A stretch of 64,000 nt of DNA from Octopus vulgaris. Taxonomy: Eukaryota. Positions 1-60,000 of this stretch are shown here, one piece after another. How positions within the stretch are numbered: position 1 is the stretch's first letter; each line of letters opens with the position of its first letter. The notes beneath the pieces are model-generated. The model had not been told where the DNA came from and searched no databases. It saw only the letters and a list, made by a program, of their open reading frames with translations. The translations under genes were made by a program, and so were the position numbers. The stretch lies in the NCBI GenBank assembly GCA_951406725.2, contig OX597814.1:15190001-15254000 (forward strand), written 5' to 3'.

Positions 1-1665
1 CCGCAAGTTTCCAAAAAAGAAAGAAACATTATAGGTTACAAAATAAATATAAGATTAAAAAATTGTTAACATTTATTATATTCATTATATATATTATTTC
101 CTGTATAAATTAGTATTACTAAGAAATATTACCGGTCCCTGGCACATTGGGAAAAAAAATGCCGGTACGACACATTAGATAGTTTGAGAAACACTGCCTT
201 AAATGATATGAAACAACACGTCTTTATTTTTATTGACAAACTTTTATCTAGTCTCGGTCTTACATACTTTGTATATGCAGGAAAAGCGAAAACTTTTGCG
301 TATACTTGGAGATGAACTGTTGGTGTAACCAATATATTCTGATAATTTAATTTAATGATTTAACGTTCTTCATTTGCATTGATTTGTGCTTGCCTAATAG
401 TCTTGTGTAATGCCGAGCAGGCATATTAATGTAACCATGTAAGCATAAACTCTTCCACACTGACACTGTTACTATACGAGAAGGCTGTCAAACGGCTGTA
501 ATCCTAAGGTTGTTAAGTGGTTCAATAAATATATTCACCATTCATACTTGTTATGGCTTATATATATAACATGGTTTTATCTGTTTGGGTTATTGTGTTA
601 AGACCACTGAGAAGAAAAGTAGTCGTAAAATTAGCACAGCGTAAGAAAATATTTTAGAAAACGATGACAGCAATAAACGGCCGTCCATTCTCGTTCTAGA
701 GTCCTCTTGAGAATATATTTTTTTCTTAGTGCTGCTCATTATATTCCTATATCCTGAGTAAGGTGTATTAACAAGAACGATAAAAGACGGCAATACTATT
801 GATAGTGATCGCAGTAGTGAAATACAATAAAAAATACGACACAGGATTATAAAAATATCTACAATATAAGCAAAATCAAGAGGGAAACGAATATAAAAAT
901 AAGAGAAACATGAGACTAAAATATTGCAAATGGATAGATAAATGATTGGGGAAATAGATAGGATAGTAGACGATAGCAGACGATAGTACACTTAAAGGTA
1001 TTAAAATAGAAATACACTTAAAATATGCAGATATATAAAGGGAAGAACGTGGACTGGAAAGTGCTTGAACTTGGGCTGCAGAAGTACACGAACGTTTTCA
1101 TGCACACACATGCATACGTACACAAAGCACACTACCACATACACATACATACACACATATGTACAAATATACATAGATACATTCACATCAAGCATGATTA
1201 TTATACAGATAGATACTTGCGTATACATACACGCACTAGTGCGTTCCGTCTGCGCGTTGTGCCATTTGATTTTCGAATCCAAACCTAGAAGAAAGTACTG
1301 ATGTGCATGTTCTTCAAATTGTCGATACAATTTCTTGACAGCAGCCCCTCACAACATTATGAACATTTTCCGGTTCAAAACGCAGATTATCAGAACAAAC
1401 ACTAGCACTGACTACTTCCCAAAAACCCACACCAGCGCACACACTAGCTCTGACCAGTTCCCAGCACCTACAGCACCTACACCATCATCCACACACCTAC
1501 CCATGCACACACGCACACATCAAAGTCACCAGCCCCCTTCCACACGAACATGCACGCTCTCACATACACACGCACGCGCACCTTCATTTTAGGACCACCA
1601 TTACTTTATTATCTCCCCTTCTTCCTATCTCTCCTCTGTGACCCCTCTGTCCTGCATTCGCTAGC

Positions 1666-1844
1666 ATAGATTGCTAGTCACTAAACCTTTTCTATTTTCT
1701 CTCTGTTAATTTCAGGTTTCCTTTCTGTGGAAGAGCGTAGGGTCGAAACGTAAAAGACTTTCTCACTTTCCGAGCGTTAAACTAATACATCTGTTTGTTG
1801 TTTACACACCCATCTTCGTCTTTTATTTTTTTCGTAAACTCTAC

Positions 1845-1847
<3 letters not shown>
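1666..1847 (+). mobile_element. Short hammerhead-bearing (TA)n-associated element, family H1, copy 1
   Basis: About 180 bp homologous to the four other copies. Contains CTTT CTGTGGA AGAGC GTAG GGTC GAAAC GTA AAAG (about 1720-1757). The 3' end abuts (TA)n. Confidence 0.75.
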
Positions 1848-1894
<47 letters not shown>

Positions 1895-13246: not shown

Positions 13247-15012
13247 TGTGTACAGTGCTCAGGTGCACTACAACTCATCTAAAGTGTATATATAATCAGG
13301 TGAAGTTTCGGCGGATTTCGGAAAGCATGAGGGCCTTAAAAGATGCAGTGTCATGGCAGTCAACAACTGACGCAGGCAGTTTATTCCATGCTTCAGCAAC
13401 TCTGAGCGTGAAAAAATGTTTCCGAAAGTCATGGGAGCTGTATTGTTTTCTGACTTTGTAGGCATGTCCACGTGTGTTAGACACATGGAGATCAAAAAGG
13501 TGTTCAGTGTTGTTGTTGGTGAGGTGGTTGATAACTTTGTGGGTGTTTACCAAGTCCGTCGCCAAACGCCGGAGCTTCAGTGAATCCATGCCCAGGGAAA
13601 CAAGGCGCTCAGAATATGGTAGGTGTCTGATGGAGGGTATGCGTTTGGTTGCACGTCTCTGGACAGATTCCAGGAGGTCAATGTTCTGTGCAAGATAGGG
13701 GTTCCAAACTGATGATGCGAATTCCAAGGTGTGGTCGTACCATAGCTGTATACAGTTTTAAATAGATGGCTGGAGAGCGGCTAACAAAAGACCTGCTGAG
13801 TGATGCCAAGACACCCTCGGCCTTCCTGACAATCTTAGAGATATGCTTTGACCAACGCAAATCACTGCTGACAGTGATGCCTAGGTCACGCTCGCAAGAG
13901 GATTTCTTGATATCAGTGTTGTGGAGGGAGTATGTGAACGCAGGGTTTTTTCTCCCAAAATGCATGGTGGTACACTTGTCCACAGCCAGTTTCAGTTGCC
14001 AGTCTGTGATCCATTGCTGCATTGTGTCTAGGTCTGATTGCAGGAAAGAGTTGTAGACATCAGGATCTGTCCTTTTGATTTCAAGGTACAGCTTGATGTC
14101 GTCTGCATATTTCAATACTGTGGCATTCTTTAAATTGGCATCTATGTCGTTAATGTATGCCACAAACAAGAGGGGGCCAAGGACAGATCCCTGTGGTACA
14201 CCCGATGACATCTCATATGGTGTAGAGTGCTGTCCTAGAACTGTGACTACCTCCTTTCGGCTGAGGATGAAGGATTTCAACCAGTTAAAAAGGTCATCCC
14301 CCACACCCATTGCAGAGAGTTTCACCATAAGCCTTTTGTGTGGCACAGAGTTGAAAGCCTTAGCAAAGTCAAGGTAGACAACATCCACCCATGAGCCACT
14401 GTCAGTAATCTGAGTAATGTCCTCAAGGAACTCGACAAGCTGGTCACTGCAGCTGGAGTTAGGGACAAATCCATATTGTGAGGGTCGGATGAGACTGTGA
14501 GAGCTCCAGAAGTTCCAGAGTGTTTCTCTGACACACGATTCCATCAGTTTTGCAATACAGCTAGTGAGACTGACTGGGCGATAGTTGACAGGTGATGTGC
14601 GGTCGCCCTTTTTGAACAGAGGAATGACACTGGCAGTTTTCCACTGCTCCGGAGTAGCACCATTGTTGAGACAGTACTGGAAGAAAATAGAAAGCTGGTG
14701 TAAAAGGAAGTGCCTGCCACGTTTGAGAAGCAGGTATGTAACTCCATCGAGACCAGGGGAGGCATAGTTGCGCTTATTTTGAAGGTGACGTCGCAGCATT
14801 GCAGGTGTAAATTCCATAGTTGTTATGGAGTTTGCTGTTAGTGATGGTGAAGATGGTACATTTTGACTTTCAACAGTGAATATGTTTGCATAGCACTCGG
14901 CAATGAGTTCTGCGCATTCCTTGGGGTCGTCAGTGATCTGGTTTGTGTGAGGGTTGCGAAGAGGGCCCACTGGAGAGTGAGGTCTCTGCTTTGAGTGCAC
15001 ATATTTCCAGAG
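13215..15012 (-). mobile_element. 5'-truncated CR1/L2-group LINE with reverse transcriptase (one frameshift near 13727) and (TTA)n tail
   Basis: ORF 13678-15000 has SPGLDG, WKTASVIPLFKKG, NYRPVSLTS, YLDFAKAF, SGVPQGSVLGPLLF and YADD. ORF 13296-13727 continues with the CR1-type C-terminus (LESVQRRATK, TRGHAYK, FFTLRVAEAWNKLP). A trinucleotide tail lies at 13215-13246. Confidence 0.95.
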
Positions 15013-17574: not shown

Positions 17575-17612
<38 letters not shown>

Positions 17613-17614
<2 letters not shown>

Positions 17615-17795
17615 GATAGATCGCTAGCCACTACATATTCCTTATCTTCTCTCCTTGTTTCTTTCTGTATTCCTTTGTGTGGAAGAGCGTAGGCTCGAAA
17701 TGTTAAAGACTCTTTCACTTACCAAGCGTTATACTAATACATCCGTTTATTGTCTATACCACCTGTCTTCGTCTTTCTTTTTGACAATTCTCCCC

Positions 17796-17796
<1 letters not shown>
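17613..17796 (+). mobile_element. Family H1 element, copy 2 (degenerate core)
   Basis: Same sequence family: CTTT GTGTGGA AGAGC GTAG GCTC GAAAT GTT AAAG. Lies between (CT)n and (TA)n. Confidence 0.75.
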
Positions 17797-17865
<69 letters not shown>

Positions 17866-23379: not shown

Positions 23380-25130
23380 TTAGATAAACTTAGATAACTT
23401 AGATATGTTTCGACCAAAGATTGGTCCAGGCCATGTCTAACTTAATAGCACCACCTGATAGGATTATTCGAATCCTGTTTAAGTCAAGTTTTGTTCAAGT
23501 AGTGAGTTCTTGTTGGGTGAGTTGTATCAAGTTTTGTTCAAGTAGTGAGTTCTTGTTGGGTGAGTTGTATCCAATTATGGGTGGCTTATCTGGTATTCTT
23601 TGAAGGAATCTATCCAGACTCCATTTAAAGTTGATGGGATCATTTTCCTCTTTGATCTCCCTCGGGACAATGTTAAATAGGGCAGGGCCTGTTGAGGAAA
23701 AGAAATTATGTTGCCGTGTACATGTATGTTGTGATCTTGAATTGGGCAGGTGACGTATGGCCCGTGGTCCCAGTCTTGGATGAACCTTGAAGCTAATGTT
23801 TAGGTCGTTTGGGCAAAGTTGGCGGTATATTCTCCACATCGTACAAATGATGTACCGCTCACGGCGACGCTGGAGGGAGTAAAGTTTCAAGGCTTTAAGG
23901 CGATCCCAATAATCGAGAGCAGCCATGTCTTCAATTCATTTAGTGAGTACCCTCTGGGGTGACTCAATTCTGGAGATGTTTTGTCTTGTATGGGGAGACC
24001 ACAGTGGGCAGCAGTATTCAAGGTGTGGCCGTACAAAGGAGGAGAAAAGTGGTATGATGACACCTTGTTCTCTGGACCGGAAAGTCCTTAAGATCCAGGA
24101 ACTCATCCTACGAGCTATATCGACCTTCTTGTTGATGTGTGAACTCCAACTGAGATCGTCATCAACAATTACACCCAGGTCTCTGATATTGTTAGAGGCT
24201 GTGAGCGGTTCCTCTGAAGGAAGAGAGTATGGTTGTTTTAGTGAGGAATTTCTTCCAAAATGCATCAGCTCAAATTTTTCCCTCATTCAGTTGCATTTTG
24301 TTTCTGTCTGCCCATTGACTCACAGCATATAGATCAGACTGGAGTTGAGTTCGGTCTGCTTCTTCATTGACGATTTGCTGGAGCTTAGTGTCATCAGCAA
24401 ATATTTTCACTTTGCAGTAATGTACGACACTGGAAAGGTCGTTTGTGTAAATTATGAAGAGTAGCGGACCCAAAACAGTTCCCTGGGGAACACCGCTGGT
24501 GACTTTTGCTGGGCTTGAGTGGACTCCATCAACTACAACATGTTGTGTTTTATTCGCCAGGAAATACTTAATCCAGTGTAGAACTTTTCCACGGATTCCA
24601 ACATTTGCCAATTTTGAGAGTAGGATATTATGGTCTACCCTGTCGAACGCTTTACTGAAGTCAAGATATATGACGTCAGAGTTCGAACCTGTTCCCAAGG
24701 CTTTGAGTACATCTTCAATGTGGTGTAAGAGCTGTGTTAGACAGTCCCTGCCACAGCGAATGCCATGCTGATTTGCATTTAGGAGTTTGTGGGTCTCTAG
24801 GAAGTCAGCTATCCTTGATCTTAACACTCTTTCATACACTTTAATGATGTGGGAGGTGAGTGAGATTGGGCAATAGTTGACTGCGAGGGATCTGTTTCCC
24901 TGTTTGAAAACTGGGACGACCGACTGGGATAAAACTGTTTCGGTATATAACCTGCGTCTAACGAATTTCTCCAGAGGTTGGTCAGAGGGACTGCAAGTTG
25001 GTGTCTACATTCCTTCAGGAGACTAGCGGGGAATCTATCAGGGCCTACAGCAGAGTAATATTTGACCTCATTTATTGCTGCTATATATCTTCCCTGTCTA
25101 TATATCTTCCCTCTCTATATACCTTCCCTG
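23380..25130 (-). mobile_element. Second, older 5'-truncated CR1/L2-group LINE (several frameshifts)
   Basis: Consecutive ORFs 24270-24839 (YLDFSKAFDRVDH, SGVPQGTVLGPLLF, FADD), 23936-24286 (VRPHLEYCCPLWSP) and 23495-23926 (LYSLQRRRERY). A short tandem TAGATAA(A)CT tail lies near 23380-23405. Confidence 0.93.
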
Positions 25131-48655: not shown

Positions 48656-48658
<3 letters not shown>

Positions 48659-48847
48659 AGAGTTTACGAAAAAAAACAAAAGACGAAGACAGGTGGTGTA
48701 GAAAACAAACAGTTGTATTAGTATAACGCTCAGGAATAGAAAAAGTCTTTTACTTTTCGAGCCTACGCTCTTCTACAGAAAGGTACACAGAAAAAAACAA
48801 GGAGAGGAAAAAATGTGTGTAGTGGCTAACGATCTATCATGGCGACT
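48656..48847 (-). mobile_element. Family H1 element, copy 3
   Basis: Reverse complement CTTT CTGTAGA AGAGC GTAG GCTC GAAAA GTA AAAG. (TA)n on both sides. Confidence 0.75.
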
Positions 48848-48867
48848 GATATATATATATATATATA

Positions 48868-49077
48868 ACGGGAAGCTTTATGAAAATAAACAAAAGACGA
48901 AGGCAGGTGGAAAACAAACGAACAATTGTATTAGTATGGCGCTCAGGAAATATAAATAAAACAAGTCTTTAACGTTTCGAGCCTACGCTCTTCAACAGAA
49001 AGATACACAGAGAGAGAAAAACACAGAAAGAGGAGAGAAAAAAAATGCGTGCAGTAGCTAACGAATCAACATGGCGA
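48868..49077 (-). mobile_element. Family H1 element, copy 4 (best-preserved ribozyme)
   Basis: Reverse complement TCTTT CTGTTGA A GAGC GTAG GCTC GAAAC GTT AAAGA at 48966-49003. (TA)n on both sides, in tandem with copy 3. Confidence 0.78.
48966..49003 (-). ncRNA. Minimal type I hammerhead ribozyme-like motif, A6U variant
   Basis: Stem I UCUUU/AAAGA, core CUGUUGA, stem II GAGC-GUAG-GCUC, GAAAC, palindromic AACGUU stem III, GUU triplet. Confidence 0.6.
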
Positions 49078-49603
49078 TTTATATATATATATAAACATAT
49101 GTTATAATTATAAACAGGGCCAATTCTCTGCATGGATTTTCAAACCATATTGGTTTCTCATCAGGGGCATCCACATCACACTAACACACTCCAGAGAAAG
49201 AATCAACCAATCTGTTTATATAATCAACAAATGCAGCAGTTATTCTGTGAAGGTGTCTCTAATTTGCATACCGAAAATGTTTAACACTATAAATACCAGC
49301 AACGTGTCAACGGCGATCTTAGTTCACACAGTATTAAGGTATGATGCAAATATGTAACTTATGGTATAATACCTATATATATATATATATATATAAGAGG
49401 TAATGGTGTCATTGAGAACCAAATTTGTCAAGTAATGCAGAATAAGTGCTATAGATAGACAGTAGTTAAGTTCCAGATTCGGTGAGTTTGTGAATAAGGG
49501 GTTCAACGTTGATCATATGTCAGCGTGTGTATATAAGAACTTTTTGCGTAATGAGATAAAAAAACCCAGGCTGTGTAGGTATTAGAACATTTATAGATAG
49601 AAG

Positions 49604-49655
49604 GCCTTGCAGCTGTTTCCAGGATATTTATTAGTTATATCCCTTCATCAGAGAC
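49604..49655 (-). ncRNA. Type I hammerhead ribozyme motif (cleavage triplet mutated to GCA)
   Basis: Reverse complement GTCT CTGATGA A GGGATAT aactaataa ATATCCT G GAAAC AGCT GCA AGGC. Canonical core, 7 bp stem II, near-palindromic stem III, stem I GUCU/AGGC. Confidence 0.7.
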
Positions 49656-49956: not shown

Positions 49957-49957
<1 letters not shown>

Positions 49958-50145
49958 GGGAGAATTCACTAAAAGAAAAAAACAAAAGACGAAGGCAGGT
50001 GGTGTAGACAGCAAACAGATGTATCAGTTTAACGCTCGGGAAGTAAAAAAGTCTTTAACGTTTCGAGGCTATGGTCTTTGACAGAAAGGAACACAGAAAG
50101 AAACAAGGAGAGAAAATAAAGAATGTGTAGTGGCTAGCGATATCT
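49957..50145 (-). mobile_element. Family H1 element, copy 5 (degenerate)
   Basis: Reverse complement CTTT CTGTCAA AGACC ATAG CCTC GAAAC GTT AAAG. Flanked by TA-rich tracts. Confidence 0.72.
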
Positions 50146-57075: not shown

Positions 57076-60000
57076 ATTCTATCTACTTTTACTCTTTATT
57101 CTTCTATTTTGTTACTTATAAACCGTGAATTTCCGTCTAGAATTTTCATGTATATTCACCTTGTTTCTGGTGACACAATACCCAGTGTCCAAACACGGTA
57201 GCTTATCGCTTGGGTTACCCAGAAACAGCTGTAATACTTTAGATTAATTTTAGTCTAAATGACTTCAGACACGCGACCAGCCATGGTTTTTCTGATCCTT
57301 TTTCCTTTACTATAACACGCACTCACATACACACACACACACTCACACCCACACACACATACACCCACACACAAACACACAGACACACACACTCGCACGC
57401 ACACACACGCACACATATAATGTGAGTTTTTTTCTAGTGGCGATATATTCGGTGTTAATTTCTGTCATGTAAAGATTTTTAATGCATCAGTCAATAAAGT
57501 AGCATATACATGTATACAGACTCAACACATATATACACACATACATATATACATGTGTGTGTGTGTGTGTGTCTTTGTATGGGGGTGAGGTGCACACGCT
57601 CGAGGTGTTGTTATTGCTTTTGTTGTTTCGAGCCCATTCTTCTATGATTAAGCAGATTCATCATCAGTGGACTTCTAGCCATAATCGTATTTTTGGATAA
57701 TGCCCCATTTTACAACGTACCCTTTATCTCGAAACGATAAGGTGGTATTTAACGTTTATCAATATCTGCTATAACTGAATAGGTGGGCCACCACGTCGAG
57801 ACTCGTCGTGAACTTAAATGTTGTATAGCGTGCTATACAGTGATCTTATACATTTTCACACTATCCTATGTATGCCTTTATATTCTTCTGGGGGCGATGT
57901 GCTGTGGACACAATAAAAGTAGGCTACGTTACAACAGTACAATAGATGCCTTTTCTCTTCCAGAATTAAAATTATTTCTTTCCCTCAAGATTTCTTGTTA
58001 ATTGCTTAAGTATAACGGAAAAAAATTAAAAGGTAATTTTATACTGAAGGCATTTCTGTATGAGTGCCATTTATTTATTTATTTTTTTTTGTCAGACACT
58101 TATAGGAGGTATAGCGAATTTACAACGGCGAAATATTGCATATTTATATAGTGACAACATCAGAAGGGTTTCGAGTTTTTAACAGCATAAAATCGCTTTA
58201 CATCTTAATTAGGTTTTCTGTACATTCTCAGTATACACTGCTATGCTGTTGATCGAAGATGTGTTGAGTTCTACTACGAACCATAATTGTTATATTGAAA
58301 GTGTTTACCAAAGGATTGTTAACGTTTCTGAAAGTGTACTTGTTTTGTACGTCGATATGCTAATTATAGAAATATCATTATTTCTAATTCTCTCAAAAGG
58401 AGACTACGGCAGCGGTACTGAATATTAATAGTTATCGCCATGCTAACATGGCAGGCCAGAAAAATAGGATGAATGCTGCTGTTGATTACCTCCAAGAGGC
58501 CATCGCCTTTAGCTAGCTATGTGACACACAAACCTGCGTCCATTATAATCTTCGAACAGGGGAGGTCAGCAGCATCCCCTTGCTGGTCTGGAAACCACAA
58601 ACTAGTTTCGAGGTGGTTGCCTCTTATCAATGTGGAGTAGCCGAAATTGTCGTATGTATGTACTGTTTATGGATTTATCAATGTCATGAAAGGTGCAAGA
58701 TGAAATTAACTCGTCTTTCAGGATTCATAACTTAATACAAGCTCACAAAGTCGGTTTCCCAGATCTTTTGAACAACACATTATCTATTTACAATGTACCG
58801 ATCTCACGTTCACAACGTTGATGATGATCTAGTGACATGGGATATTCTCTGTCACTTGAGTGGAATAAATATCATAGAGATTTCTTTCTAAATTACATGC
58901 TTATCGGTTTTATCTCCGTTGCGCTTTCAAACAGTAGTGGAATAACTGGTAACGGCGCACAGCATTTTGTATGTCTATTTTTATACCGGCTGAAGTCGAA
59001 AGTTATCAAAATATTTAAATGTACTGAAAGCTTACAGAAGATAAATATATAAGTATATAAATAAGTTTCTAAATAGAAACGTTATTATTTCTAATTCTCT
59101 CAAAGAGAGATATTCAGTAACAGTATTTCAAAAAGTAAAGACTATTTGCCAACATAATGTGGCAGTCCCAGATGGGACGAATGTTACTGTTGTTTTCTTT
59201 ACTGTATATTTTCTTTATATGGTCATATTTGAAATTTGTCATATTCGTTTATTATTAATTCCGCATTGATATTGGTTGTAGCTTTAAGTAATCACTAATT
59301 AGCAAACACTTAAGTTGATTGATCTCTTTGATTAAATAACTTAGAATAAGATTCATGTGTGCCTGATTGCAACGTAAATCTCTATTCGGTATTTCAAGGT
59401 GTACAACCAGTAACTTTTCTCTTAGAGAGCTCCGCATTGTAAGATAATTTCGGCTGTATTTGAGCGTGCATACTTCATTCCTTGAAGATAATCATAACCT
59501 AAAATATACGCATGATTTCTTTACATAGGGATATTGGAAATCCAGTGTTTTTAGTTTATTTAAATAACATTACTATTAACTGTATCTGGCTTCTGATTGA
59601 TTCCAGAAGACTTTCAGTGAATGAATAAATGCGACAATTTGATGCTTGAAAGGCTAACGGATTTTCTCTTGTTTTCGTCACTCAAATTCCTTTCGTAAGG
59701 CATCAGTTATCCTGAGACTATGATAAAAGATAGTATTTTATAGATGCCATCTTTTAATTGTAGTATGGTGATTGTTTCTGTGGTTGCGGCAGGATTTGAG
59801 AAGTTTGGCAGCAAAAGAATGGGAATAATTCCCTCCTTTTTGTGCTGCGTTTTACTTGTGAGTGAGGACATGCATGTTTAAGTGAAGTTTTGGTACTGAA
59901 ATTTTGATTTCTTTTTGATATGCACATTGTTTTGTGTAGAGACATCACCTACGAATGGTTGCCATCGTTGTTTCGAATACTATATTCTGCTCTCGTTGGT

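What the first reader, a model, noticed from the sequence alone, without database searches (positions are those of the whole stretch)
48656..49077. Family H1: ~190 bp five-copy element whose hammerhead has a fixed non-canonical core (CUGUNGA)
Seen: all five copies (1666, 17613, 48656, 48868, 49957) have U where the canonical CUGANGA has A6, while position 7 varies freely (G, G, A, U, C), as expected for the unconstrained hammerhead position. Stem I (UCUUU/AAAGA), stem II (GAGC-GUAG-GCUC after an extra A) and GAAAC-GUH with a zero-loop palindromic stem III are retained. Copies 3 and 4 lie head-to-tail, separated only by about 20 bp of TA, the arrangement needed for dimeric hammerheads. Inference: a natural A6U variant that may cleave only as a dimer, possibly releasing a ~210 nt monomer or circle.
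Basis: partly seen in the sequence, partly recalled or inferred. Interest (0 to 1): 0.82.

Follow-up and report, generated by a model that had tools for sequence, protein, structure and literature searches.

The report
Penelope hammerhead with fixed U6 core
These repeats are the cut-off tail ends of a very abundant Penelope-type jumping gene, and their small hammerhead RNA motif carries U at a core position that is A in nearly all described hammerheads, kept through seven successive waves of copying, so it is likely a slowed but still working self-cutting RNA (cutting untested).

Summary
U at hammerhead position 6 is real: 5 of 5 window copies, and 17,626 U against 207 A and 482 C/G among exact genome-wide matches. 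The '190 bp element' is not a unit of its own. It is the 5'-truncated 3' end of an endonuclease-bearing (Neptune-like) Penelope retrotransposon; long copies run up into RT and GIY-YIG coding sequence, and copies end about 95 nt past the cut site at (TA)n. Across seven successive subfamilies, 0 of 30 structurally constrained hammerhead columns changed against 56 of 144 flank columns. Only the two free positions (7 and 17) moved, so the fold was under constraint while carrying U6. A sister family of about 14,000 matches mostly carries another U-turn change, U4C. The dimer-to-circle idea for copies 3 and 4 is not supported: they are 77% identical, come from different subfamilies, copy 3 has a broken helix III palindrome, and most copies stand alone. 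Only copy 4 is intact. I found no natural A6U hammerhead in the papers I could search, but the key survey of Penelope hammerhead variants was not available. Verdict: a new core variant of a known ribozyme kind; activity untested.

The parts
48747..48782 (-). Copy 3 minimal type I hammerhead (U6 at 48775, A7, predicted cut after 48751); C15.2A breaks the helix III palindrome
48656..48849 (-). Copy 3: truncated 3' end of the Penelope-like element, subfamily S5; 3' end abuts a long (TA)n run
48850..48867 (.). (TA)n spacer: the target tail of copy 4, next to the 5' truncation of copy 3
   Evidence: target preference
48868..49078 (-). Copy 4: truncated 3' end, youngest subfamily S7
48967..49002 (-). 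Copy 4 hammerhead, the only intact one in the window (U6 at 48995, U7, predicted cut after 48971)
49957..50142 (-). Copy 5, subfamily S3; hammerhead 50053-50088 decayed (G8A, two stem II pairs lost), U6 at 50081
17611..17797 (+). Copy 2, subfamily S3; hammerhead 17673-17708 decayed (C3G, C15.2U), U6 at 17680
1430..1848 (+). Copy 1, subfamily S2; keeps about 230 nt more of the element's 3' UTR upstream (start approximate); hammerhead 1721-1756 with one stem II mismatch, U6 at 1728

Best explanation
The repeats are 5'-truncated 3' ends of an endonuclease-bearing Penelope-like retrotransposon whose minimal type I hammerhead has carried U instead of A at core position 6 through seven successive subfamilies, and this hammerhead is likely a slowed, dimer-dependent ribozyme that is still needed by the element. 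Shown: the element identity, the fixed 3' end about 95 nt past the cut site at (TA)n, U6 fixation, and constancy of the hammerhead columns against diverging flanks. Inferred: the element's RT-endonuclease nicks (TA)n and copies the RNA from its 3' tail, mostly stopping early; two hammerheads in a tandem transcript would pair through the ACGU palindrome and cut after GUA/GUU. U6 would lower the rate (it removes a U-turn contact and is predicted to let U4-G5-U6 pair with A15.1-C15.2-G16.2 in the monomer), which would be tolerated or favoured because the RNA must keep the tail behind the cut site long enough to be copied. The window copies are passive, mostly decayed products.
For: Element: 5' extensions reach a GIY-YIG-like C-terminus, then a CxxxxCxxC linker and RT motifs; a 267-aa open stretch of a young copy hits 91 proteins, best E 2e-75 at 48% identity, many with PF00078 and some with PF01541. 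U6: 17,626 U, 207 A, 482 C/G; 73 of 75 in a sample anchored outside the hammerhead. A6 copies occur in all seven subfamilies, mostly with the subfamily's own position 7, as expected for post-insertion changes. Constraint: 0 of 30 constrained columns vs 56 of 144 flank columns differ between subfamily majorities, Fisher p 2.6e-6, using only copies not picked by a hammerhead pattern; position 7 changed 5 times and H17 twice, only between A and U. G8, G12 and C3-G8 are kept. One stem I pair swaps C-G to G-C in sister families. A natural A6C hammerhead is slow but active (PMC3088659, PMC7151607), U4C is slow in vitro yet supports viroid infectivity (PMC3088659), and minimal Penelope hammerheads cut weakly and only as dimers (PMC4209133). 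Predicted G5-C15.2 pairing rises from 0.00-0.23 with A6 to 0.29-0.98 with U6 in all seven subfamilies.
Against: No cleavage was observed. In a full mutagenesis of one hammerhead all single changes in the CUGA turn had low activity and no second change rescued them (PMC9901934). One invariant column does not prove selection for U: 86 of 146 flank columns also never changed. In the oldest subfamily position 6 is non-U in 23 of the first 100 matches against 45 of 790 at position 4, which points to relaxation rather than a need for U. Only 1 of 8 stem pairs covaries. In the energy model the active dimer (-12.9 kcal/mol) is far less stable than two monomer rods (2 x -10.8). No integrated copy starts (0 of 76) or ends (0 of 75) at the cut site. 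RNA reads showed no start/end pile-up or joint (weak test). The seven subfamilies form one ladder and were cut by eye from the tree, so they are not independent samples.
Confidence: 0.6

Rival explanations
1. The hammerhead fold no longer cuts and is kept as a shape or sequence that the element's RT-endonuclease binds to pick its own RNA 3' end; U6 (and U4C in the sister family) mark loss of catalysis.
For: All integrated copies examined run through the cut site (75 of 75; 0 of 76 start there). Two large sibling families each carry a different U-turn change. CUGA-turn mutants have low activity (PMC9901934). Naiad Penelope elements spread without canonical hammerheads (PMC8557442).
Against: The columns that moved are exactly the two that catalysis leaves free, H17 stayed A or U, and G8, G12, C3 and the ACGU palindrome stayed fixed. 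Uncut ends are also expected from a re-ligated or uncut template.
Confidence: 0.27
2. The motif is a dead relic or a DNA-level signal; its constancy among subfamilies is an accident of few master lineages and of how copies were selected.
For: Subfamilies form a single ladder; inclusion in the tree needed a fuzzy hammerhead match; flank columns include indel-prone pyrimidine runs that can inflate their variability.
Against: The sample anchored on a motif outside the hammerhead shows the same constancy in 75 of 94 segments, the other 19 being 15 truncated, 2 cut by the locus edge and 2 with indels; the downstream flank alone has 29 of 88 variable columns; sister families that barely align in the flanks keep the same stems and core frame.
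Confidence: 0.08
3. One reading: a short retrozyme-like unit whose tandem pair (copies 3 and 4) forms a dimeric hammerhead and releases a ~210-220 nt monomer or circle.
For: Copies 4 and 3 are head to tail, 220 nt cut to cut; same-strand neighbours (9 of 126) exceed the about 2% expected from half of the 3.9% random neighbour rate; one locus (L014) has four copies at about 287 nt spacing.
Against: The pair is 77% identical and from different subfamilies; same-strand neighbours are 76-91% identical; copy 3 has C15.2A; the unit is a truncation of a coding element. A true near-identical tandem array with a canonical core exists elsewhere in this genome and is a different family (L193). No go-back joints.
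Confidence: 0.05

Closest known systems
Minimal type I hammerheads of metazoan Penelope-like elements (Cervera & De la Pena 2014, PMC4209133)
   Same: Open 4-bp stem I, extra nucleotide after A9, G10.1-C11.1, no loop 3 with palindromic 15.2-16.2, U-rich flank, place at the element's 3' repeat, mostly solitary truncated copies.
   Different: Position 6 is U. All 44 representatives seen in their Fig. S3 (44 of 56) have A6, consensus CUGANGAH; the core variant they report is U3-A8.
Natural A6C hammerhead of phage Bcep176 (PMC3088659; PMC7151607)
   Same: Pyrimidine at position 6; slow but active, prefers Mn2+ over Mg2+.
   Different: A single phage example with C; here U, in at least 17,626 genomic copies of an animal retrotransposon, with a minimal dimer-type architecture. 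Activity not measured here.
EN+ Penelope-like elements, Neptune type (features as described in PMC8557442)
   Same: RT followed by a CX2-5CxxC linker and C-terminal GIY-YIG; insertion into (TA)n; partial tandems (L321) and close inverted pairs; sense-strand hammerhead near the 3' end.
   Different: Non-canonical hammerhead core; long low-complexity pyrimidine-rich 3' UTR. Clade not placed by an RT tree.
Non-LTR retrozymes (PMC7229834; bioRxiv 10.64898/2026.07.22.740005)
   Same: Short hammerhead-bearing animal repeats related to Penelope repeats.
   Different: Retrozymes are non-coding tandem arrays giving circles; this family is a truncation series of a coding element and is mostly solitary.

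Membership tests
Minimal type I hammerhead of Penelope-like elements | Core CUGANGA with A at position 6 | tested here: not met
   U in 17,626 of 18,315 exact matches
Minimal type I hammerhead of Penelope-like elements | Other core positions (C3, U4, G5, G8, A9, G12, A13, A14, A15.1, U16.1, H17) | tested here: met
   Majority letters in all seven subfamilies; counts in 75 copies
Minimal type I hammerhead of Penelope-like elements | Extra nucleotide after A9, G10.1-C11.1, palindromic 15.2-16.2 without loop 3 | tested here: met
   features listed in PMC4209133
Minimal type I hammerhead of Penelope-like elements | Stems I and II supported by covariation | tested here: inconclusive
   1 of 8 pairs has a two-sided change, only between this and sister families; the rest never vary or only break
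Minimal type I hammerhead of Penelope-like elements | Self-cleavage as a dimer | not testable with these tools
   Bench assay needed; read lay could not see 3' fragments
EN+ Penelope-like element (Neptune type) | One frame with RT and C-terminal GIY-YIG endonuclease | tested here: met
   Open frame from RT palm to GIY-YIG in L321; homologues with PF00078 and PF01541. Direct Pfam GIY-YIG match is below cut-off (E 0.01-0.018)
EN+ Penelope-like element (Neptune type) | CX2-5CxxC linker before the endonuclease | tested here: met
   C-x4-C-x2-C in many copies; feature from PMC8557442
EN+ Penelope-like element (Neptune type) | Insertion into microsatellites, fixed 3' end, ragged 5' ends, tandem and inverted structures | tested here: met
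   65 of 75 end in a simple repeat, most 90-105 nt past the cut
EN+ Penelope-like element (Neptune type) | Placement in the Neptune clade by RT phylogeny; full-length copy with both terminal repeats | not tested
   No named reference proteins at hand; the six long loci fetched were all 5'-truncated within the RT
Non-LTR retrozyme | Tandem arrays of similar units, no coding sequence | tested here: not met
   9 of 126 with a same-strand neighbour, 76-91% identical; coding 5' extensions
Non-LTR retrozyme | Abundant unit-length circular RNA | tested here: inconclusive
   No joints in three RNA runs of a related organism, but the reference fitted only the hammerhead

The most novel reading that the evidence does not exclude
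U6 is a selected safety catch: it zips the catalytic core of a lone hammerhead shut (U4-G5-U6 on A15.1-C15.2-G16.2) until a partner copy, the element's protein or Mn2+ opens it, and two sibling Penelope lineages in one genome have each detuned the U-turn (A6U, U4C) because a retroelement gains from a slow ribozyme.
Probability: 0.22. Interest if true: 0.78.

Novelty: new variant of a known kind. Interest (0 to 1): 0.54.

Why it matters
A6 counts among the invariant hammerhead nucleotides, and standard descriptors require it, so this family of tens of thousands of copies is invisible to them (Rfam gave no match in the window). Why Penelope elements keep weak minimal hammerheads is an open question (PMC4209133, PMC8557442). 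This genome offers a natural series - canonical A6, A6U and U4C in sibling elements with the same stem II - that lets one test whether cutting, slow cutting, or only the fold is what the element needs.

Tried and rejected
Rfam scan of the window: 0 matches. Pfam found no RT domain in five short RT/linker pieces and only a sub-threshold GIY-YIG match; identity rests on homologues. A distinct A6 or C6 subfamily inside the oldest group: not shown (378 and 153 of 2000 shuffles reach the observed clustering). Mapping of 5' ends was spoiled by alignments running into microsatellites; I use only the cleaner count. A search for a separate U6 family with another loop 2 (249 matches) returned what look like point variants of the same family. 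Sequencing-run search: no holder on record as RNA listed; seven coded organisms (A-G) hold the stretch, but only B (raw RNA reads) and C (contigs) were laid. A second lay with a better reference and organisms E-G did not complete, so cleavage ends in RNA and U6 in those organisms stay open. Earlier scan notes: none for this genome or sequence. A paper on coronavirus hammerhead variants has no A6U or A6C. An alternative pairing of the downstream GAGC with the stem II 3' strand is predicted only weakly (median 0.06-0.50) and cannot be tested by covariation.

Full report
Observation. Five copies of one repeat lie at 1430-1848 (+), 17611-17797 (+), 48656-48849 (-), 48868-49078 (-) and 49957-50142 (-); pairwise identity is 74-85%. 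Each has a 36-nt hammerhead-shaped stretch: CUUU, core, extra A, stem II GAGC-GUAG-GCUC, GAAAC-GUH, AAAG. Position 6 is U in 5 of 5 and position 7 is G, G, A, U, C, as stated. Only copy 4 is intact; the other four have one to four differences in core, stem II, loop 2 or the palindrome. Rfam finds nothing in the window.

What the element is. The window lies in a 2.8 Gb animal genome, which I did not identify. Forty-two aligned copies share one 3' end next to (TA)n and have ragged 5' ends. The longest reach about 690 nt upstream into a frame like a GIY-YIG C-terminus. A search with that part gave 1,813 candidates, 40 scored; the 30 loci show RT motifs, a C-x4-C-x2-C linker and the endonuclease. 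A young copy (L189) has an open 267-aa stretch between two TA runs that hits 91 of 2,678 candidate proteins, best E 2e-75, many annotated PF00078 and some PF01541; direct Pfam matches are sub-threshold. L321 holds two long copies head to tail. This fits an endonuclease-bearing Penelope-like element of the Neptune type as described in PMC8557442 (passages read); clade placement was not tested and no full-length copy was found among six long loci. Sixty stretches at round coordinates (600 kb) held 8 copies with the core, about 37,000 genome-wide (14,000-65,000).

Is U6 fixed? With the rest of a 29-nt pattern exact, position 6 is U in 17,626, A in 207 and C or G in 482 matches (88 of the first 100 C/G are C). 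In 94 segments anchored on a motif outside the hammerhead, 75 contain it and 73 of these have U6; the other 19 are 15 truncated, 2 cut by the locus edge and 2 with indels. A tree of 235 copies built without the hammerhead columns is a ladder, which I cut by eye into seven subfamilies (222 copies) plus 6 sister copies; 7 rows at the boundaries were left out. Median divergence from the subfamily majority runs from 14% (oldest) to 3% (youngest). A6 copies, oversampled on purpose, occur in every subfamily. In the oldest subfamily position 6 is looser: 77 U, 14 C, 8 A, 1 G in the first 100 of 745 matches, against 45 of 790 non-U at position 4 (p 1.7e-7). So early source elements probably varied at position 6 before U took over, though A6 and C6 copies do not cluster significantly. 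RNA reads of a related organism also carry U6: C in 112 of 1,741, 74 of 1,610 and 33 of 1,189 reads, A below the 5% listing limit.

Is the fold constrained? Between subfamily majorities, 0 of 30 constrained hammerhead columns differ against 56 of 144 flank columns (128 copies not picked by a hammerhead pattern; p 2.6e-6; all 222 copies: 58 of 145). Position 7 changed five times and H17 twice, between A and U; the flank mean is 0.65 changes per column. This is the pattern of a hammerhead under constraint while it carries U6. Limits: the ladder steps are not independent, flanks have indel-prone runs, 86 of 146 flank columns also never changed, and only 1 of 8 stem pairs covaries, between this family and its sisters.

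Sister families. A related pattern with A6 and the same stem II has 14,003 matches; 70 of the first 100 carry U4C. These share the downstream GAGCG and the (TA)n tail, and most swap one stem I pair to G-C; their coding part was not found in the 30 loci fetched. So the two large sibling families each deviate in the U-turn, while canonical forms also exist.

The tandem pair. Copies 3 and 4 are 77% identical and fall in S5 and S7. I infer that the younger copy 4 landed in TA next to copy 3. Copy 3 has C15.2A, which weakens one of the two active sites of a dimer; the cut-to-cut distance is 220 nt. Of 126 anchored copies 9 have a same-strand neighbour within about 1.5 kb (76-91% identical) and 8 an inverted one, two pairs counted twice. 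That is above the random rate (3.9% for either strand) and fits the known habit of Penelope elements to land beside each other (PMC6765202, passages). A true retrozyme-like array with near-identical 350-360 nt units and a canonical core lies elsewhere (L193).

Mechanism. Shown: identity, ends, fixation, constraint. All 75 core-anchored copies run past the cut site, most ending 90-105 nt later, and 0 of 76 begin at it, so copying starts on uncut or re-ligated RNA. Inferred: target-primed copying from the tail at (TA)n; two hammerheads in a tandem transcript pair through ACGU and cut slowly. Published minimal Penelope hammerheads cut weakly and not as monomers (PMC4209133, parts 1-2 of 4 read). 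A6C is slow but active and prefers Mn2+ (PMC7151607, parts 1-2 of 4; PMC3088659, section 8 and passages). Against activity, every single change in the CUGA turn was low in a full mutagenesis (PMC9901934, passages; no A6U value seen). Folding 50 intact natural copies, U6 raises the predicted G5-C15.2 pairing from 0.00-0.23 to 0.29-0.98 by subfamily; for copy 4 the active dimer model (-12.9 kcal/mol) is well above two monomer rods. This is a secondary-structure model only. I put slow-but-working at 0.6, fold kept for binding at 0.27, relic at 0.08, retrozyme circle at 0.05.

RNA. Three raw RNA runs of organism B gave 1,775, 1,653 and 1,212 reads, almost all on the hammerhead part, equally in both directions, with no start/end pile-up and no joint.

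Novelty. Six paper searches (terms included A6U, CUGUNGA, CUGUUGA, CUGUCGA, U4C with hammerhead) showed no natural A6U hammerhead in their listings. The 44 of 56 representatives seen in the supplement of PMC4209133 all have A6 (one supplement file not searchable). PMC7229834 and PMC11014351 were seen as passages, the 2026 preprint as part 1 and passages (supplements not seen). Lunse et al. (PMC5785218), the large survey of Penelope-associated hammerhead variants, is not held and could contain U6 examples. Verdict: a new core variant of a known ribozyme kind in an ordinary retrotransposon setting; interest 0.54.

Noticed in passing
L327-L356 (G000:C1), also L128, L179: Sister repeat family with 14,003 matches to an A6 pattern; 70 of the first 100 have a U4C core (CCGACGA), with the same stem II and (TA)n tail. 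The U4 forms may partly be CpG decay of C4 (not tested).
   Followed up: partly
L193:3070-4560 (G000:C1 near 20.0 Mb): Tandem array of near-identical 350-360 nt units, each with a canonical CUGACGA hammerhead and a CCGG palindrome, on both strands of the locus: looks like a true non-LTR retrozyme.
   Followed up: partly
window 58596-58634, minus strand: Hammerhead with the U3-A8 core swap (UUGAUAA), 5-bp stem II and a CUAG palindrome; a different family.
   Followed up: no
window 49610-49655, minus strand: Canonical-core (CUGAUGA) hammerhead-like motif with a long stem II between copies 4 and 5; a similar stretch appears in L046.
   Followed up: no
window 48939-48944 (minus), and all subfamilies and sisters: A GAGC(G) 20-35 nt behind the cut site is kept across this family and its sisters; it repeats the 5' strand of stem II and could replace it. 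Unexplained.
   Followed up: partly
L072, L102, L117, L149, L169: Close inverted pairs of copies (136-339 nt apart), the usual fold-back insertion form of Penelope elements.
   Followed up: no
window 13678-15000 and 24270-24839, minus strand: Two open frames with Pfam RVT_1 matches (E 1e-36, 1e-24), unrelated to the family by tblastn.
   Followed up: no
L189:156-3596, minus strand: A 1,146-codon open frame that reads like an endonuclease-RT LINE protein (by eye), so probably a young non-LTR element.
   Followed up: no
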